Notes under the pieces: model-generated
Told to the model about the DNA's origin: nothing
The model's input: only the letters and a program-made list of their open reading frames with translations
The model's database searches: none
Shown: positions 1,017 through 58,246 of the stretch, one piece after another
Layout: the number at the start of each line of letters is the position of its first letter
Numbering within the stretch: the first letter of the stretch is position 1
Sequence record: MK373778.1
Strand: one strand, 5' to 3'
From: Escherichia phage vB_EcoM_WFbE185
Length of the DNA stretch: 64,000 nt
Program-made: the position numbers and the translations under genes

Positions 1017-1298
1017 CTATTTTTCTGAAGCGCCTGAAATATATTTTTCAAGACGTTGTTTCATTAGCGAGCCGTTCTTAGCGATTTCTTCCGGTTTATC
1101 GCACATACGTAACAAGGCTTCAAGCTTAGCGATATCGCTGGTACGTTCAAATTTGCGAGTATCTATCTTACTAGCAAGTTCAGAAATACGTGCTAATAGA
1201 CTTTCGGCTTCAACCAAAGCTGCACCTAGCTTAGTTGCAAATGTGTCGGTAGCTTCGTTAAGAATAGATTCTGATAAAAATTCACTATATGTTTTCAT
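1017..1298 (-). CDS. internal head protein-like, leader [10 protein letters not shown]
   Basis: ORF track 1017..1313; likely start at in-frame ATG 1298 giving [10 protein letters not shown]; ATGA overlap with lysozyme stop. Confidence 0.65.
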
Positions 1299-3983: not shown

Positions 3984-4011
3984 AATATTCTCCTCATGTT
4001 TTAATAGGACT

Positions 4012-4041
4012 ACTATAACATAGCCCTATAATTGTGTAAAC
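4012..4041 (-). promoter_or_regulatory. early promoter cassette (-35 GTTTAC, -10 TATAGT inside ataggact/agtcctat palindrome)
   Basis: minus GTTTACacaattatagggctatgtTATAGT, leader with GAGGAG before ATG 3983. Confidence 0.55.
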
Positions 4042-4053
4042 AGTTTTGTGAAG

Positions 4054-5278: not shown

Positions 5279-5306
5279 TGTGGACTCCATTTAATTTGAT
5301 AGGACT

Positions 5307-5336
5307 ACTATAACATAGCCCTATCTTGTTGTAAAC
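5307..5336 (-). promoter_or_regulatory. early promoter cassette (GTTTAC / TATAGT in palindrome)
   Basis: same gataggactactataacatagccctatc cassette as at 4000. Confidence 0.55.
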
Positions 5337-5340
5337 TGTT

Positions 5341-8586: not shown

Positions 8587-8616
8587 TTTGTTTACTCCTC
8601 TGTAGTTGATAAGTCT

Positions 8617-8646
8617 ATAGTATCACCATCCTTGGTGCTTGTACAT
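8617..8646 (-). promoter_or_regulatory. early promoter (-10 TACTAT, weak -35) with conserved leader agacttatcaactacagagga
   Basis: leader shared with the cassettes at 8989 and 45058. Confidence 0.4.
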
Positions 8647-8654
8647 CGTTATTT

Positions 8655-8960
8655 TTAATTTTTCCAACTTAACAACTTGTAGTGTCCTTCATTCGTACGA
8701 GGTTTATCCCAAGAAATACTAATATATGATTCGCTATCAATAGAAGTCGCCGGGTTTTTCTCTACCGTAAGACCTTCACTTTCCAGCCATTCAATAGTAT
8801 TTGCGCATAAATCTGAAGAACACCTCATCGGAAACCGGCAAGATTTTTCACCTTTAGCTGCAGTGTTATACATCTTTTCTAAAATACGCTTTTGCACGTT
8901 TTTAAAAATAGTTTCAGCAGATTCTTCAGATTTTTTATTCAGTTCAGTGTAAAGACTCAT
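8655..8960 (-). CDS. hypothetical protein
   Basis: ORF track 101 aa; early promoter upstream. Confidence 0.65.
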   Translation of the reverse strand: MSLYTELNKKSEESAETIFKNVQKRILEKMYNTAAKGEKSCRFPMRCSSDLCANTIEWLESEGLTVEKNPATSIDSESYISISWDKPRTNEGHYKLLSWKN

Positions 8961-8988
8961 AATATTTTCCTCTGTAGTTGATAAGTCT

Positions 8989-9017
8989 ATAATATCATGC
9001 CCTTAGAAGAAGTAAAC
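8989..9017 (-). promoter_or_regulatory. early promoter (-35 GTTTAC, 17 nt, -10 TATTAT)
   Basis: minus GTTTACttcttctaagggcatgaTATTAT then conserved leader. Confidence 0.5.
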
Positions 9018-9055
9018 ATCTTTATGAAATATTTTTATGCCCTAGATACCAAAAA

Positions 9056-9077
9056 GCCCCAACCGTAAGGAAGGGGC
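9056..9077 (-). terminator. intrinsic terminator after IP-like gene
   Basis: gccccaaccgtaaggaaggggc hairpin then T-run on minus strand. Confidence 0.6.
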
Positions 9078-9085
9078 ATTCTATA

Positions 9086-9550
9086 TTATTTAATTTGTTT
9101 AGCAGACCAGATACGGTCTTTAATAAGTTTTTGGATATCTTCAACATACTCAAGGCTATGAGCGTGAGGATTATCTTTGAAGCTATGTGCTCGAGCGAGT
9201 TTCTGACCTTCAGTTTTGATTACCAAAAGTTCTTTAAGAATTGCTTCATACTTAGAAATAATTCCTTTGGCGATATTTTTTTCTTGAGCTGCTTTAGGGT
9301 CCGCTTTTGGTGATGGTGCTTTACCTGTAGCTTTCTGGAACAATTCACCTGATGCAGCTAGGCTTTTAAAAACTCGACTAACAGTATTAGCATTAGTAAA
9401 TCCTTCAGCTTTAAAATCTCTAATAAAACGGAAACGTTCTTCATCAGAGGCGTCTTTATAAGAATATTTACCTGCTTGAATTGCTGCAATTGCTGCGGCT
9501 TTTACATCTGAACTAGATTGTTCAGTCAAAAATTCTGCATATGATTTCAT
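9086..9550 (-). CDS. internal head protein-like, leader MKSYAEFLTE
   Basis: ORF track 154 aa; capsid targeting leader; flanked by near-identical hairpins. Confidence 0.7.
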   Translation of the reverse strand: MKSYAEFLTEQSSSDVKAAAIAAIQAGKYSYKDASDEERFRFIRDFKAEGFTNANTVSRVFKSLAASGELFQKATGKAPSPKADPKAAQEKNIAKGIISKYEAILKELLVIKTEGQKLARAHSFKDNPHAHSLEYVEDIQKLIKDRIWSAKQIK

Positions 9551-9594
9551 GTTACTTTTCCTAAGTTAATTAACTTATCTATTTATTATTATGC

Positions 9595-9622
9595 AAAAAA
9601 GCCCCAACCTTTCGGAAGGGGC
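9595..9622 (-). terminator. intrinsic terminator ending the tRNA-region transcript
   Basis: gccccaacctttcggaaggggc hairpin then TTTTTT on minus strand. Confidence 0.55.
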
Positions 9623-9654
9623 TATATACCTTGTCGGGGTCCCACCTGCTAAGG

Positions 9655-9700
9655 CAAGTGTTTGTACGAAACGCCGGGATTCGAACCCGGTTATTAAGCA
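9655..9700 (-). other. tRNA-like 3' element (T-arm plus acceptor-like stem), possible small stable RNA or tRNA remnant
   Basis: minus-strand ccgggTTCGAATcccgg followed by cgtttcg that can pair with cggaacg about 60 nt upstream; no full cloverleaf. Confidence 0.25.
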
Positions 9701-9925
9701 GTTGACGCTACTCAATATTTTTAAAAGGCCATATCTCGTCCATATCCGAACGTTCCGTCAAAAACGCTACTCGGCTTACGGCAAAGATATTTCCTCGAAT
9801 CGATAATTCTGTGCGCCGTTTCTGCTGTGATGTGAGGGGATATTAACAAATCGTAAAGATTTGTTAAGACCAGTCCTTACTCAGGGAACATCAGTCCGAC
9901 GTCTTGCCGGTAGCGACCCGGCTTC

Positions 9926-10270
9926 TTATTTTGGCATATCATCAATTTGCTCTCGACGCCGACGCCATAGATTAATCGCTTCATAGGCACATTCTGCGTT
10001 TGGTATATGACGGCAATAATATAATGATTCGCGTTTCTGGAACCGATGTTGCAACGGGATTTCGTTTAAAAGGTCTTTACGGTCAAAGTATTCAAAACTA
10101 GTTAACCCGGAACGGTTTTTAAGAAACTTCCAATGTCCGAATTCATTTTTAAAATAAACATAATCAGCATGTTGATATAATGAATTAATTAACCTATCGG
10201 AAATAACTGTTTCACGTTCGTTAAAATAAAACGTTAAATCATGAACTACCAGATACACATTGCCTTTCAT
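9926..10270 (-). CDS. hypothetical protein immediately downstream of tRNA-Arg
   Basis: ORF track 9926..10318 extension overlaps the tRNA; ATG at 10270 with GAGGA SD. Confidence 0.55.
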   Translation of the reverse strand: MKGNVYLVVHDLTFYFNERETVISDRLINSLYQHADYVYFKNEFGHWKFLKNRSGLTSFEYFDRKDLLNEIPLQHRFQKRESLYYCRHIPNAECAYEAINLWRRRREQIDDMPK

Positions 10271-11902: not shown

Positions 11903-11918
11903 TTGTTTTGATAGGACT

Positions 11919-11948
11919 ACTATAACATAGTCCTATCATCATGTAAAC
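11919..11948 (-). promoter_or_regulatory. early promoter cassette (GTTTAC / TATAGT in palindrome)
   Basis: gataggactactataacatagtcctatc. Confidence 0.55.
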
Positions 11949-11950
11949 TA

Positions 11951-12214
11951 TTAAATTCCAGCTTCGCGTTTAACATAATCAACATAAGCTTCGATAGCTT
12001 TCTTGCTGGTAATTTTTACCTGGCCACGTCCATTGCCTTCTTTAGAGTTTTTCTTAACAACTACATTACCATCTTTAACACCCCATACATGGACATAAGT
12101 ACCGATGTTTCGGTCGTAGAACATTGCATGGTCGTTGTTGTAAGAGAATGATTCGTAGTTCTCCGACAGAGTAGAAGATTGAGATTCAGCGATAAATTCT
12201 TTATACGTTTTCAT
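11951..12214 (-). CDS. internal head protein-like, leader MKTYKEFIAE
   Basis: ORF track 87 aa. Confidence 0.7.
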   Translation of the reverse strand: MKTYKEFIAESQSSTLSENYESFSYNNDHAMFYDRNIGTYVHVWGVKDGNVVVKKNSKEGNGRGQVKITSKKAIEAYVDYVKREAGI

Positions 12215-12249
12215 TTGTTTTTCCGTTTGGTTGTTGATTTGATAGGACT

Positions 12250-12279
12250 ACTATAACATAGTCCTATCGGCATGTAAAC
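12250..12279 (-). promoter_or_regulatory. early promoter cassette (GTTTAC / TATAGT in palindrome)
   Basis: gataggactactataacatagtcctatc. Confidence 0.55.
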
Positions 12280-12282
12280 TAC

Positions 12283-12570: not shown

Positions 12571-12604
12571 TTTATTTCCTTGAGGTCGTTTATTTGATAG
12601 AATG

Positions 12605-12634
12605 ATAGTAACACACCATCATCCTTATGTAAAC
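12605..12634 (-). promoter_or_regulatory. early promoter (-35 GTTTAC, -10 TACTAT)
   Basis: minus GTTTACataaggatgatggtgtgtTACTAT. Confidence 0.5.
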
Positions 12635-12647
12635 TGTTTTGTGAAAA

Positions 12648-56477: not shown

Positions 56478-58246
56478 AACCTGAAGAAATGAAATCCATG
56501 CGTAGAAATAAGGTCATTGCCGATAATAAACCACAAAAAGTAGCTGCAACAGCAGCTACCGATTCATTAGAAGCATTGAATGACATTTCATCAAAACTAG
56601 ACGATGTCCAAGCCGCGTCTGAACTCACATCACAAAGTGTAGAAGATAAAGGCAATGGAATTATTGAATCAATTGGAGACTTAAAGAATTCGACAGATAA
56701 TACTGCTGAAGGCACAGAGCTTATCGCAGAAGTTATTGAAAAACAAACTGAAGTCACTAAAAGTATAAACGAAGTTTCTAGTGCAATAAGCTCTAAGTTA
56801 GACCGATTAGCTACATTATTAGAGCAAAAATTACAAACATCTACCGCTATTCAAAATACAGGAGGCACCTCTCTTGAAGTAATTGAGAACGCAATACCTG
56901 TTAAAGTGGTTGAGAATGAAACTTCTGACGAGTTGTTTAAAGCATTACCTACACCTGAAAAGATTGATAATAAGCCAGACGAAGATTTCTTCCCGGCCCC
57001 GGTTCAAGAAAGTGCTAATTCTACTTCCGATTCTAAAGGCGGAATTAGCTTTAAATTGAGTGATAAAATTGCAATGCTCACCAAAACAGTTCAAACCGGG
57101 TTTAATAAATCAATATCAATTTCAGACAGAATTGCTGGAATGCTTTTCAAATACACTATAACGGCTGCTATTGAAGCAGCAAAAATGGCCGCACTTATTC
57201 TTGGTATTGTTATCGGTATTGATTTATTGATAGTCCATTTCAAATATTGGACAGACAAGTTCACTTCTGCCTGGGATTTATTTGATGAAAACTTTACTAA
57301 ATTCTCCGATGAAGCTAAAGAGTGGGGTAAATTCTTAAGTGATATATTCACTTCTATTGACTCGATAAAACAAATGTGGGAAGCTGGAGACTGGGGTGGT
57401 TTAACCGTTGCTATTGTCAAAGGTGTAGGAACAGCATTAATGAACTTAGGTGAACTAATTCAATTAGGAATGGCTAAACTCTCCGCGTCTATATTGCGTG
57501 CTATAGGTTTTGGCGATACCGCGGACGAAATAGAAGGACGTGCTTTAGAAGGATTCCAAGAAACTACTGGGAACAAATTAAAGAAAGAAGACCAAGAGAA
57601 AGTCGCTAAATATCAAATGAAACGTGACGATGGGGAATTAGGAACCGTTTCTAAAGGTCTTGATATGTTACAACGCGGCAAAACATTCGTTACTAACTGG
57701 GTTCGTGGTAATGACAATAAAGAAGAGTTTAGTACAAGTGATGAGCGCGCTGCGGAATCAGCAAAATTAAAAGAGTTACCTGAAGAGGAACGTAAAGAGG
57801 CGTACATAAAAGCGAATGAAACTCGTGCCGCACTGGTTAGATTTGAGGATTATATCGATAAAATCGATATGACTAATCCAGAAAATGCTAAAAACGTCGA
57901 GAAGTCTTATGCTGATTTAAGTAAACTTATTAAAGACCCTGAACTTAATAAAACTCCTGTTGTTAAAAAGGAAATAGATGCTAGATTTGAAAAGCTAAAT
58001 AATAAAATGGCTGAAGCCAAAAAGGCTCAGACTACAGTTAAGCCTGAATCTTCGTCTAAATCTCCGGAAGCAAAACAAGTTCAGTCAATAGAGAAAGGAC
58101 GTGCTTCTGAATCTAAACAACAGCAACCGGTAGCGGCGATTAGTAACACAAATAATGTCGTCAAAAAGAATACCGTAGTCCAGAATATGACCCCTGTAAC
58201 AAGTACAACGGCTCCTGGAATTTTCCATGCCACCGGTGTTAATTAA
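56474..58246 (+). CDS. 29: gp29 tail length tape measure / hub protein
   Basis: 590 aa, synteny. Confidence 0.95.
   Translation: MKPEEMKSMRRNKVIADNKPQKVAATAATDSLEALNDISSKLDDVQAASELTSQSVEDKGNGIIESIGDLKNSTDNTAEGTELIAEVIEKQTEVTKSINEVSSAISSKLDRLATLLEQKLQTSTAIQNTGGTSLEVIENAIPVKVVENETSDELFKALPTPEKIDNKPDEDFFPAPVQESANSTSDSKGGISFKLSDKIAMLTKTVQTGFNKSISISDRIAGMLFKYTITAAIEAAKMAALILGIVIGIDLLIVHFKYWTDKFTSAWDLFDENFTKFSDEAKEWGKFLSDIFTSIDSIKQMWEAGDWGGLTVAIVKGVGTALMNLGELIQLGMAKLSASILRAIGFGDTADEIEGRALEGFQETTGNKLKKEDQEKVAKYQMKRDDGELGTVSKGLDMLQRGKTFVTNWVRGNDNKEEFSTSDERAAESAKLKELPEEERKEAYIKANETRAALVRFEDYIDKIDMTNPENAKNVEKSYADLSKLIKDPELNKTPVVKKEIDARFEKLNNKMAEAKKAQTTVKPESSSKSPEAKQVQSIEKGRASESKQQQPVAAISNTNNVVKKNTVVQNMTPVTSTTAPGIFHATGVN

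What the first reader, a model, noticed from the sequence alone, without database searches (positions are those of the whole stretch)
9050..9625. Internal-protein gene 9086..9550 is bracketed by two near-identical terminator hairpins
Seen: gccccaaccGTAAggaaggggc at 9056-9077 and gccccaaccTTTCggaaggggc at 9601-9622, same stem with a different loop, each followed by a T-run on the minus strand. Inference: the gene sits in a cassette bounded by direct repeats that could serve as recombination points for module exchange between phages.
Basis: partly seen in the sequence, partly recalled or inferred. Interest (0 to 1): 0.5.

Follow-up and report, generated by a model that had tools for sequence, protein, structure and literature searches.

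The report
Terminator repeats bracket a swappable phage gene
In this RB69-like T-even phage, two copies of one transcription-terminator hairpin bracket a small late gene that looks like an injected head protein. Related phages show that this hairpin-to-hairpin unit is gained, lost or swapped, which is a known kind of phage gene shuffling rather than a new one.

Summary
GCCCCAACC-GTAA-GGAAGGGGC lies at 9056-9077 and GCCCCAACC-TTTC-GGAAGGGGC at 9601-9622; none of 100 shuffles gave two matches. On the transcribed (minus) strand each is a G+C-rich stem-loop followed by a U-run.

The upstream copy is the conserved terminator after the stable RNA rnaC, annotated in T4 in 1985. The downstream copy ends a 154-aa gene. 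That gene has a late-promoter-like AATAAATA and an N-terminus, MKSYAEFLTE, like the capsid-targeting sequence of T4 internal proteins.

- In three genomic backgrounds, near-identical phages differ by exactly one hairpin-to-hairpin unit (545-557 bp). Pairs: T4 vs RB18, RB69 vs phiE142/PhAPEC2, NBG1 vs this window. The empty site keeps one hairpin.
- In JS09 an unrelated gene with the same targeting sequence fills the slot, starting right after the hairpin.
- About 97% of roughly 470 copies of the gene are followed by this hairpin.

This matches the promoter/stem-loop (PeSL) shuffling model and the polymorphic internal-protein loci of T-even phages, so it is a new member of a known kind. Termination, packaging and recombination at the hairpin are inferred, not shown.

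The parts
9601..9622 (-). Upstream hairpin H2. The RNA is GCCCCUUCC-GAAA-GGUUGGGGC, followed by a U-run encoded at 9595-9600. It is the terminator of the tRNA-rnaD-rnaC transcription unit.
   Evidence: Sequence. Fold. The orthologous T4 hairpin is annotated 'pot. stem-loop structure; pot. terminator' in X03016.1. PhAPEC2's copy is annotated as an ARNold terminator. It always lies directly after the rnaC trailer in relatives.
9056..9077 (-). Downstream hairpin H1. The RNA is GCCCCUUCC-UUAC-GGUUGGGGC, followed by a U-run encoded at 9051-9055. It is the terminator of the 154-aa gene.
   Evidence: Sequence. Fold. Annotated as a rho-independent terminator in SA79RD and PhAPEC2. The family hairpin follows the gene in about 453 of about 469 records.
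9046..9077 (.). Copy 1 of the 32-nt direct repeat (hairpin, A/T-run and 5 nt of flank).
   Evidence: the repeat finder family D10. The repeat is 35 nt with one mismatch in RB18. Stem-loop plus T-run are identical over 27 nt in PhAPEC2.
9591..9622 (.). Copy 2 of the 32-nt direct repeat, 545 bp from copy 1.
   Evidence: the repeat finder family D10.
9086..9550 (-). Gene A: 154 aa, basic (pI 9.5), all-helical in the model. The N-terminus MKSYAEFLTE resembles the capsid-targeting sequence (CTS) of T4 internal proteins. It is an internal-protein-like candidate.
   Evidence: ORF. CTS motif. phrog_2280, function unknown, and no Pfam or NCBIfam family. Found in 511 phage records. AlphaFold2 model pLDDT 75, with no PDB fold match. 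Composition.
9580..9587 (-). Late-promoter-like element AATAAATA, which is TATAAATA in most relatives. It lies immediately after H2's U-run and 29 nt upstream of the ATG. The Shine-Dalgarno AGGA is at 9562..9559.
   Evidence: Sequence. Relatives carry a perfect TATAAATA at the same place. Position -13 of the late promoter is A or T in RB69-type phages (PMC1524935).
8989..9016 (-). Early-promoter-like site (TTTACT, 16 nt, TATTAT) about 40 nt downstream of H1. It drives the next gene. With H1 it forms a PeSL-like stem-loop plus early-promoter composite.
   Evidence: Promoter scan. It fits the T4/PST PeSL promoter consensus TTTACW N17 TAYWAT, apart from a 16-nt spacer (PMC4122927). A similar composite lies downstream of rI in RB69.
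9665..9803 (-). rnaC (species 1 stable RNA) homolog. Its 3' trailer (9623-9664) runs into H2.
   Evidence: 136 of 139 nt identical to T4 rnaC. ATK47 annotates rnaC at the orthologous position.
9811..9929 (-). rnaD (species 2 RNA) homolog, upstream in the same transcription unit.
   Evidence: 101 of 118 nt identical to T4 rnaD.
8655..8960 (-). Next gene downstream (RB69ORF146c-like, 101 aa). It marks the right-hand conserved flank of the slot.
   Evidence: ORF. SA79RD annotation. In NBG1 this gene directly follows the single hairpin.

Best explanation
All genes here are on the minus strand. The two hairpins are two copies of one Rho-independent terminator.

**What each copy does.** H2 (9622..9601) ends the tRNA-Met / tRNA-Arg / rnaD / rnaC transcription unit. 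It is the ortholog of the T4 hairpin after species 1 RNA. Immediately after its U-run comes a late-promoter-like AATAAATA, a ribosome-binding site and a 154-aa gene. The gene's product starts with a capsid-targeting-like decapeptide, MKSYAEFLTE. H1 (9077..9056) ends that gene. About 40 nt further on, an early promoter restarts transcription for the next gene.

**Effect on expression.** The bracket turns the gene into an insulated, self-contained late transcription unit set inside an early/middle region.

**Effect on evolution.** The two copies form a 27-35-nt direct repeat. The 545-bp unit [late promoter + gene + one terminator copy] can be deleted by recombination or replication slippage between the copies, leaving one hairpin. 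It can also be joined to any site that ends in the same terminator. Across T-even phages, the slot after the rnaC terminator therefore holds nothing, this gene, or other unrelated genes with the same targeting sequence, in several combinations.

**Shown here:** the sequences, the predicted folds, orthology with the T4 terminator, the exact hairpin-to-hairpin indels in three backgrounds, and the alternative occupants.

**Inferred:** that termination occurs, that expression is late, that the protein is packaged, and that the hairpin itself (rather than the wider flanks) is where the crossover happens.
For: **Structure and orientation**
- Each copy is a GC-rich stem with a tetraloop and a U-run, only on the transcribed strand.
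- The transcribed-strand RNA is always more stable (-13 to -18.5 kcal/mol) than the opposite strand (-7.8 to -14.1 kcal/mol), because of G.U pairs.
- There is one compensatory pair (C-G to G-C at positions 2/21) and GA/AG wobble swaps. Loops vary while stems are kept.

**Independent annotation**
- T4's ortholog is annotated as a potential terminator in X03016.1.
- Both copies are called terminators in PhAPEC2, and H1 in SA79RD.

**Cassette geometry (unless stated)**
- T4 vs RB18: flanks 97% and 96% identical, with one 555-bp indel starting inside the hairpin.
- RB69 vs phiE142 (L005): flanks 98% and 99% identical, with one 548-bp indel.
- L072 vs L011: flanks 100% identical over 172 and 521 bp, with one 557-bp indel.
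- NBG1 is the exact empty site for this window's arrangement.
- The same gene joins three different downstream contexts exactly at the hairpin's 3' edge. The contexts begin ggtatctaggcc (leading to e.8), agtttgaatcac (leading to gene C) and ggtatctagggcat (leading to ORF146c).
- Junction counts are 278, 126 and about 49 records, against 16 with another terminator.

**Alternative occupants**
- Gene B (208 aa, MYTFNEFLAE) in JS09 and L016; gene C (187 aa, MKTYAEFLTE) in RB69; the DUF7338 gene in L102 and L010.
- Genes A and C align only over the 10-aa N-terminal CTS; A vs B and B vs C give only weak internal alignments (E 0.017 and 5.7), so there is no clear homology beyond the shared CTS motif.

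**Internal-protein likeness**
- The motif M..[YF].[EQ]F[IL].E hits only 5 ORFs in six frames of the window. The other four lie at the two canonical internal-protein loci.

**Precedent**
- In RB49, ORFan192 is flanked by two PeSLs, while phi1 has a single PeSL at that site (PMC2839356).
- T4 deletes and amplifies segments between 6-10-bp repeats, leaving one copy (PMC9391042).
Against: - No transcript 3' ends, promoter activity or virion proteomics are available for this gene.
- The Mosigvirus version of the stem has a tandem U.U mismatch and is about 4-5 kcal/mol weaker than the T4 version, so it may be a leaky terminator.
- The window's promoter element is AATAAATA rather than the canonical TATAAATA.
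- The hairpin core is a generic terminator design. The 20-mer CCGAAAGGTTGGGGCTTTTT occurs in many unrelated metagenome contigs. Stem identity alone therefore does not prove common descent.
- Flanks on both sides of the slot are highly conserved. Transfer between phages with the same context could use ordinary homologous recombination in those flanks, with no role for the hairpin.
- 16 records carry the gene with a different, shorter terminator.
- In the gene A / gene B replacement, the right boundary is not H1.
- Covariation support for the stem is weak: 12 variants and one compensatory pair.
Confidence: 0.75

Rival explanations
1. The hairpins are ordinary terminators and nothing more. The cassette carries its own terminator, which resembles the rnaC terminator because both follow one favoured design. 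Gene gain, loss and exchange happen by general homologous recombination in the long conserved flanks, so the repeat is a by-product rather than the recombination site.
For: - The same 20-nt core occurs in dozens of unrelated metagenome contigs, so the design is reused widely.
- Flanks such as rnaC are 98% identical between T4 and this phage. They give ample homology for ordinary recombination.
- The right boundary of the gene A / gene B replacement is the next gene's promoter/5'UTR, not H1.
Against: - The repeat extends beyond the stem: 35 nt in RB18, including ATACCAAAAA and TAAG.
- Both copies share lineage-specific oddities: the tandem U.U in Mosigviruses, GA/AG in Tequatroviruses, and GGCCC..GGGCC in vB_EcoM_005.
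- All three filled/empty pairs differ by exactly one repeat period.
- The same gene is joined to three unrelated downstream sequences precisely at the hairpin's 3' edge. Flank homology cannot explain this.
Confidence: 0.15
2. The hairpin is a specific recombination signal, recognised as a sequence or as a cruciform by a phage or host protein. It would act like an integron attC site and actively mobilise cassettes among several hairpin-marked loci.
For: - The identical hairpin, with its T-run, GGYATCT and an early promoter, is also found downstream of rI in RB69 and in metagenomic T-even contigs.
- The DUF7338 gene lies next to family hairpins at both loci.
- Arbiol et al. speculated that a GGGG...CCCC stem might be a protein target, and cite Mosig's GGGC/GCCC-associated T4 deletions (PMC2839356).
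- The weak U.U variant is kept at three loci of one lineage.
Against: - No recombinase or integrase gene is associated with the cassette.
- The T4 recombination machinery acts on very short homologies without any specific site (PMC9391042).
- The dispersed family is tiny. There are two copies in this 64-kb window, none in T4 52-64.5 kb, and only the rnaC copy in T4 66-76 kb.
- The sequence is a generic terminator found in unrelated organisms.
Confidence: 0.07
3. The repeat is the scar of a tandem duplication of a [terminator + gene] unit, and the two gene copies later diverged into different internal-protein-like genes.
For: - Arrays such as rnaC-HP-geneA-HP-geneC exist (L011, PhAPEC2).
- Genes A and C begin with nearly the same 10 codons.
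Against: - Genes A and C share only the 10-aa CTS, and the other comparisons are not clearly significant.
- In this window the gene after H1 is not a CTS gene.
- Duplication does not explain the three different downstream contexts.
Confidence: 0.03

Closest known systems
PeSL / PmSL elements (promoter-early or promoter-middle stem-loops) of T4-type phages: Arbiol et al. 2010 (PMC2839356); Comeau et al. 2014 (PMC4122927)
   Same: - An intergenic stem-loop terminator paired with a promoter, repeated on both sides of a small non-essential ORF.
- Close relatives have either the ORF with two elements or a single element at the empty site. The example is RB49 ORFan192 vs phi1.
- The elements sit at insertion, deletion and replacement boundaries.
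- H1 plus the early promoter at 9016..8989 fits the T4/PST PeSL layout.
   Different: - The copy that precedes the gene (H2) is coupled to a late promoter, TATAAATA/AATAAATA, not an early or middle one.
- The shared repeat is only 27-35 nt (stem-loop, T-run and a few nt), not the ~100-bp composite.
- The stem is GCCCC..GGGGC with a GNRA-type loop. The PST/T4 PeSLs are described as AGNA-loop-TCNT and more variable.
- Mini-circles were not tested here.
Polymorphic internal-protein (IP) loci of T-even phages: Repoila et al. 1994 EMBO J 13:4181, as summarised in PMC2839356, PMC4122927 and PMC12373910
   Same: - Genes that share only the N-terminal capsid-targeting sequence replace one another between related phages.
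- They are bracketed by conserved regulatory repeats. In this window ipI (12214..11951) is itself bracketed by 48-nt early-promoter repeats.
- The ATK47 record notes a 43-bp direct repeat around Ip7/Ip9.
   Different: - The papers read here describe two IP loci, the ipI locus and the ipII/ipIII locus. One states that IP genes are absent elsewhere in T-even genomes. This slot, directly after rnaC, is a third place and is empty in T4.
- The IP-locus repeats are AT-rich stem-loops built on early promoters. Here the repeat is a G+C-rich terminator.
- I could not read Repoila 1994 or Comeau 2007, so I cannot say whether this slot was already listed there.
T4 tRNA-region terminator after species 1 RNA (rnaC): GenBank X03016.1, 'pot. 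stem-loop structure; pot. terminator'
   Same: H2 is its ortholog. It has the same position after the rnaC trailer, the same 3' arm, the same GAAA loop and the same U-run.
   Different: - T4 has GCCCCGACC (fully paired through G.U, -18.2 kcal/mol). This phage has GCCCCUUCC (tandem U.U, -13.9 kcal/mol).
- T4 has a single copy and no gene after it.
Lambdoid 'morons' (an ORF with its own promoter and terminator)
   Same: A single ORF carrying its own promoter and terminator, inserted between resident genes.
   Different: - G+C content is not foreign: 35.7% against 37-38% for the surroundings.
- The boundaries coincide with a conserved repeat, which is not part of the moron definition (contrast drawn in PMC2839356 and PMC1524935).

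Membership tests
Rho-independent (intrinsic) terminator | G+C-rich stem-loop in the nascent RNA | tested here: met
   A 5-bp GC stem, a tandem U.U mismatch, a 2-bp stem and a tetraloop. Energies are -13.0 kcal/mol (H1) and -13.9 kcal/mol (H2) on the minus-strand RNA.
Rho-independent (intrinsic) terminator | A U-run immediately 3' of the stem, on the transcribed strand only | tested here: met
   UUUUUGG follows H1 and UUUUUUGC follows H2. On the plus strand the stems are followed by ATTCTA and TATATA, with no U-run.
Rho-independent (intrinsic) terminator | Located at the 3' end of a gene or RNA, in the direction of transcription | tested here: met
   H2 lies 42 nt after the rnaC homolog's 3' end. 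H1 lies 8 nt after the gene's stop codon.
Rho-independent (intrinsic) terminator | Transcripts actually end there | not testable with these tools
   Only predictions are available: 'pot. terminator' in X03016.1, ARNold in PhAPEC2, WebGeSTer/TransTermHP in SA79RD. No T4 3'-end mapping paper was found.
PeSL-type shuffling cassette (Arbiol 2010; Comeau 2014) | Stem-loop directly followed by an early sigma-70-like promoter (TTTACW N17 TAYWAT in T4/PST) | tested here: inconclusive
   H1 meets it: TTTACT, 16 nt, TATTAT at 9016..8989, about 40 nt after the stem. H2 does not: it is followed by a late-type AATAAATA.
PeSL-type shuffling cassette (Arbiol 2010; Comeau 2014) | Two copies flank an ORF that is absent from a close relative, which keeps a single copy | tested here: met
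   Three filled/empty comparisons, with one to several genomes on each side: T4 vs RB18; RB69 and L072 vs L005, L011 and PhAPEC2; NBG1 vs the window.
PeSL-type shuffling cassette (Arbiol 2010; Comeau 2014) | Conservation over a composite of about 100 bp (AT-rich region, -35, -10, stem-loop, Shine-Dalgarno) | tested here: not met
   The shared repeat is 32 nt at 84% identity in the window and 35 nt in RB18.
PeSL-type shuffling cassette (Arbiol 2010; Comeau 2014) | Excision as mini-circles by recombination between flanking copies | not testable with these tools
   This needs inverse PCR on lysates.
T-even internal protein (IP) | N-terminal capsid-targeting sequence resembling MKTYQEFIAE, ending in the prohead-protease motif (L/I)-x-E | tested here: met
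   MKSYAEFLTE, compared with T4 IPII and IPIII MKTYQEFIAE. The motif hits only 5 ORFs in the window, and the other 4 are at the canonical IP loci. The cleavage rule itself comes from my own knowledge (Mullaney & Black 1996, cited in PMC9391042).
T-even internal protein (IP) | Encoded in one of the two known IP loci (next to ipI, or next to ipII/ipIII and denV) | tested here: not met
   The gene lies between rnaC and the ORF146c-like gene. T4 has no gene there.
T-even internal protein (IP) | Packaged in the head, processed and injected | not testable with these tools
   No record annotates it as an IP; every record calls it 'hypothetical protein'.
T-even internal protein (IP) | Small, basic, lysine-rich protein made late | tested here: inconclusive
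   pI 9.5 and 13.6% Lys. The late-promoter-like element is 7 of 8 matches in the window and 8 of 8 in most relatives. Expression timing was not measured.
Moron | Atypical base composition indicating foreign origin | tested here: not met
   G+C content is 35.7%, against 37.0% for 7-12 kb of the window and 38.0% for the whole window.

The most novel reading that the evidence does not exclude
The site after the rnaC terminator would be a third, previously unlisted 'internal-protein' locus of T-even phages. It would work like a small integron. A dispersed family of one G+C-rich terminator hairpin (after rnaC, after the cassette genes, after rI) would be a specific recombination signal. Through it, self-contained late-expressed cassettes for injected anti-defence proteins would be captured, stacked and lost.
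Probability: 0.1. Interest if true: 0.6.

Novelty: new member of a known kind. Interest (0 to 1): 0.3.

Why it matters
T4 internal proteins Ip1, Ip2 and Ip3 are injected inhibitors of different GmrSD restriction systems (PMC12373910). A slot where unrelated genes with the same targeting sequence are swapped in and out between otherwise identical phages is therefore a likely place for host-range and anti-defence variation. This matters when comparing or engineering therapeutic T-even phages.

The locus also gives clean natural examples of terminator-bounded cassette gain and loss. One pair has 100% identical flanks. These could be used to test the PeSL model experimentally.

The principle is already published, so the gain is an additional, well-documented instance and a candidate third locus for capsid-targeted proteins.

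Tried and rejected
- **Consensus terminator scan**: did not list either hairpin, because the interior mismatch breaks its contiguous-stem rule. It was not used as evidence against.
- **Rfam**: only the two tRNAs. There is no family for rnaC or the hairpins.
- **Pfam, NCBIfam, PHROGs**: gene A has no named family; phrog_2280 has unknown function.
- **Protein database search**: only 'hypothetical protein' names.
- **AlphaFold2 model and PDB Foldseek**: an all-helical model with pLDDT 75. The best hits were ferritins at E > 0.3 and TM about 0.3, which is meaningless.
- **IMG/VR scans**: few T-even contigs (8 and 5 loci). They were still useful.
- **Metagenome scan for the hairpin core**: mostly unrelated organisms. 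This showed the core is a generic terminator design, and it weakened 'stem identity means homology'.
- **Strict concerted evolution of the two copies**: rejected as stated. Tequatrovirus genomes mix GA and AG variants between the two positions. Only the lineage-level pattern holds (UU in Mosigvirus, GA/AG in Tequatrovirus).
- **Tandem gene duplication**: rejected, because genes A, B and C show no clear homology beyond the 10-aa CTS (A and C align only there).
- **Moron of host origin**: rejected on G+C content.
- **Transposon-like target duplication or homing endonuclease**: the cassette has no such gene, and a 27-35-nt repeat is too long for a target-site duplication. segB is nearby in T4 but absent from this window's tRNA region.
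- **Papers not held**: Repoila 1994 and Miller 2003.
- **T4 Term-seq**: no such paper was found.
Full report
**1. The observation**

GCCCCAACCGTAAGGAAGGGGC lies at 9056-9077 and GCCCCAACCTTTCGGAAGGGGC at 9601-9622.

A search allowing three mismatches finds only these two sites in the 64-kb window. None of 100 dinucleotide-preserving shuffles gave a match. The repeat finder reports a 32-nt direct repeat, 9046-9077 and 9591-9622, 84% identical and 545 bp apart.

All genes in the region are on the minus strand. On that strand each stem is followed by a T-run: TTTTTGG after H1 and TTTTTTGC after H2. The plus strand has no T-run after either stem.

The minus-strand RNAs fold as a 5-bp GC stem, a tandem U.U mismatch, a CC/GG stem and a tetraloop. 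The loop is UUAC in H1 and GAAA in H2. The energies are -13.0 and -13.9 kcal/mol.

The simple consensus scan missed both hairpins, because the mismatch interrupts the stem.

**2. Where the window comes from**

The window is from an RB69-like T-even phage of the genus Mosigvirus. It is 95-96% identical to O157 typing phage 3 and related phages.

In the direction of transcription the order is:
- an ipI-like gene, then trna.4, trna.3 and trna.2;
- tRNA-Met and tRNA-Arg;
- an RB69ORF150c-like ORF;
- rnaD (9929..9811) and rnaC (9803..9665, 136 of 139 nt identical to T4);
- H2;
- the 154-aa gene (9550..9086);
- H1;
- an early promoter (9016..8989);
- an RB69ORF146c-like gene (8960..8655).

**3. What the hairpins are**

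H2 is the ortholog of the T4 hairpin that follows species 1 RNA. The 1985 T4 tRNA-region record X03016.1 annotates that hairpin as 'pot. stem-loop structure; pot. terminator'. PhAPEC2's record calls both copies terminators, and SA79RD's record calls H1 one.

I compared 12 distinct variants from relatives.
- Loops vary (GAAA, AAAA, UUAC, UUAU) while stems are kept.
- One pair changes on both sides, C-G to G-C.
- GA and AG variants both pair with UU through G.U wobble.
- As a result the transcribed-strand RNA is always more stable than the opposite strand: -13 to -18.5 against -7.8 to -14.1 kcal/mol.

The covariation evidence is thin. The case for termination rests mainly on design, orientation and position, and termination itself is not shown.

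**4. The gene**

The 154-aa product has no Pfam or NCBIfam family and belongs to phrog_2280, of unknown function. Databases name it only 'hypothetical protein'.

It begins MKSYAEFLTE. T4 IPII and IPIII begin MKTYQEFIAE. The motif M..[YF].[EQ]F[IL].E occurs in only five ORFs across all six frames of the window. The other four are at the ipI locus and the ipII/ipIII-denV locus.

The protein is basic (pI 9.5, 13.6% Lys), and its G+C content matches the surroundings. An AlphaFold2 model is all-helical (pLDDT 75) and matches no solved fold.

Directly after H2's U-run lies AATAAATA. Most relatives have a perfect late promoter, TATAAATA, at this place. In RB69-type phages position -13 is A or T (PMC1524935).

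'Internal-protein gene' is therefore a reasonable inference, not a fact.

**5. The comparative test**

*Empty versus filled sites.* Each pair below differs by one hairpin-to-hairpin unit, and the empty site keeps one hairpin.

| Empty site | Filled site | Flank identity | Indel |
|---|---|---|---|
| T4 | RB18 | 97% / 96% | 555 bp, starts inside the hairpin |
| RB69 | phiE142 (L005) | 98% / 99% | 548 bp |
| L072 | L011 | 100% / 100% (172 + 521 bp) | 557 bp |
| NBG1 | this window | see text | about 545 bp |

- T4 has no gene between rnaC and e.8, and has one hairpin. Its left flank matches H1's flank and its right flank matches H2's flank.
- RB18 has a 70%-identical homolog flanked by a 35-nt direct repeat, ATACCAAAAAGCCCCAACCTTT[T/C]GGTCGGGGCTAAG. 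A TATAAATA follows directly after the upstream copy.
- I built the predicted empty junction for this window and searched with it. It matched as a single contiguous piece in NBG1, ECO111 5-P and LF82-4. The NBG1 sequence confirms rnaC trailer, one hairpin, TTTTTGGCATCTAGGGCAT... and then the ORF146c-like gene.

*Three downstream contexts.* The same gene is joined, exactly at the hairpin's 3' edge, to three different downstream sequences. Megablast with junction-specific queries gave these counts.

| Downstream context of gene A | Records |
|---|---|
| family hairpin, then e.8 | 278 |
| family hairpin, then gene C | 126 |
| family hairpin, then ORF146c (window type) | about 49 |
| shorter terminator AGCCCCGTCTGGGGCT | 16 |

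*Other occupants of the slot.*
- JS09 and L016 carry an unrelated 208-aa gene starting MYTFNEFLAE. Homology with the window runs through the hairpin and T-run, stops there, and resumes 13 nt before the next gene's start.
- RB69 carries a 187-aa gene starting MKTYAEFLTE.
- L102 and L010 carry a DUF7338 gene.
- Genes A and C align only over the 10-aa N-terminal CTS; A vs B and B vs C give only weak internal alignments (E 0.017 and 5.7).
- Gene A is found in 511 phage records, gene B in 135 and gene C in 165.

**6. Further context**

Both hairpin copies share lineage-specific features.
- Mosigviruses have the tandem U.U. In PhAPEC2 the two copies are identical at 22 of 22 positions.
- Tequatroviruses have GA or AG.
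- vB_EcoM_005 has GGCCC..GGGCC.
- Strict copy-to-copy identity does not hold, because GA and AG are mixed within some genomes.

The identical hairpin, with its T-run, GGCATCT and an early promoter, also lies downstream of rI in RB69 and in metagenomic T-even contigs. In one of those contigs a DUF7338 gene precedes it. The T4 stretches examined (52-64.5 kb and 66-76 kb) have only the rnaC copy.

One caution applies. The 20-nt core CCGAAAGGTTGGGGCTTTTT is found in many unrelated metagenome contigs. It is a generic terminator design, so stem identity alone would not prove duplication. The extended repeat and the indel geometry do.

**7. Mechanism**

The best reading has three parts.
- Two copies of one intrinsic terminator insulate a self-contained late transcription unit for a capsid-targeted, internal-protein-like product.
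- The same copies form a direct repeat. Between them the unit can be deleted, leaving one hairpin.
- At this repeat, cassettes can be joined to any site ending in the same terminator.

Laboratory evolution shows that T4 deletes and amplifies DNA between repeats as short as 6-10 bp and keeps one copy (PMC9391042).

Rivals:
- The repeat is a by-product, and exchange uses the long flanks (0.15).
- The hairpin is a specific, protein-recognised recombination signal (0.07).
- The repeat is a scar of tandem duplication (0.03).

**8. Comparison with what is known**

This is the configuration described for PeSL elements. In RB49, ORFan192 lies between two PeSLs, and phi1 has a single PeSL at that site (PMC2839356). 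The model was extended to T4/PST and nt-1/KVP40, including a middle-promoter version (PMC4122927). The same authors link it to the polymorphic internal-protein loci of Repoila et al. 1994.

Differences here:
- The copy preceding the gene is coupled to a late promoter.
- The shared repeat is only about 30 nt.
- The stem is G+C-rich.
- The slot is neither of the two described IP loci. [quoted passage not shown]

I could not read Repoila 1994 or Comeau 2007, so prior description of this slot cannot be excluded.

**9. Verdict**

The finding is a new member of a known kind, and interest is modest (0.3).

Noticed in passing
window 11903-11950, 12234-12281, 12589-12636 (also 3996-4043 and 5291-5338): The ipI-like gene (12214..11951) is bracketed by 48-nt direct repeats that are 94% identical. 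They are early-promoter elements (GTTTAC ... TATAGT) with an embedded palindrome, TAGGACTA..TAGTCCTA. A third copy precedes the next gene, which starts MKTYKEFISP. These look like the IP-locus repeats attributed to Repoila 1994 and the '43 bp direct repeat' noted in the ATK47 record.
   Followed up: partly
window 8596-8625 and 8968-8997: The ORF146c-like gene (8960..8655) is itself bracketed by a 30-nt direct repeat, 97% identical, made of the -10/5'UTR region of two successive early genes. In the gene A / gene B replacement, homology with JS09 resumes in this area.
   Followed up: partly
window 1017-1298, 278-538, 1-214 (all minus strand): Three more ORFs with a capsid-targeting-type N-terminus lie at the ipII/ipIII-denV locus: [20 protein letters not shown] and MKTYQEFITE. 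The last is IPII-like and is cut by the start of the window.
   Followed up: partly
L112 6142-6163 (RB69 record coordinates 58141-58162); also L084, L066, L077: The identical 22-nt hairpin, with TTTTTGGCATCT and an early promoter, lies downstream of rI in RB69, about 16 kb from the rnaC copy. In contig L077 a DUF7338 gene precedes it. That gene family also occupies the rnaC slot in L102 and L010.
   Followed up: partly
L021 (RB69) and L113 3089-3652 (PhAPEC2); 165 phage records: Gene C (187 aa, CTS-type) is at least 95% identical in protein sequence in 164 of 165 records across both Mosigvirus and Tequatrovirus. This is far more conserved than gene A between the same genera (about 72%), which suggests recent exchange between genera. 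In RB69 it is split into ORF149c and ORF148c.
   Followed up: no
Mosigvirus hairpin copies: window 9056-9077 and 9601-9622; L112 6142-6163: Every Mosigvirus copy, at three loci, has the tandem U.U mismatch (about -13 to -14 kcal/mol). Tequatrovirus copies are fully paired through G.U (about -18 kcal/mol). Why one lineage keeps the weaker stem at all its loci is unexplained. Possibilities are gene conversion among copies or selection for a leaky terminator.
   Followed up: partly
window 9623-9640, compared with T4 (L003) and most relatives: The rnaC 3' trailer of this phage, and of JS09, lacks 9 nt (within TTGCCGCAAGGCA) that most relatives have between the rnaC trailer and the hairpin. H2 therefore sits closer to rnaC.
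   Followed up: no
L016 12437-13058: In metagenomic contig L016, gene B is broken into 126-aa and 90-aa ORFs at an A9 run. JS09 has an intact 208-aa gene. This is either a sequencing error or a real frameshift.
   Followed up: no
L036 (contig Ga0209066_10000289, 60% G+C); many other loci among L024-L110: The 20-nt terminator core CCGAAAGGTTGGGGCTTTTT recurs in unrelated environmental contigs. L036 has three copies within 13 kb, each after a similar ~45-nt sequence. The same terminator design is reused well outside T-even phages.
   Followed up: no
alignment A2 (gene A homologs): The C-terminal half of gene A (from about residue 80) is nearly invariant between Mosigvirus and Tequatrovirus versions, while the N-terminal half is much more divergent. 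Tequatrovirus versions carry an extra LNE motif (MKSYAQFLNEAVLNE). This suggests either mosaicism inside the gene or different constraints on the two domains.
   Followed up: no
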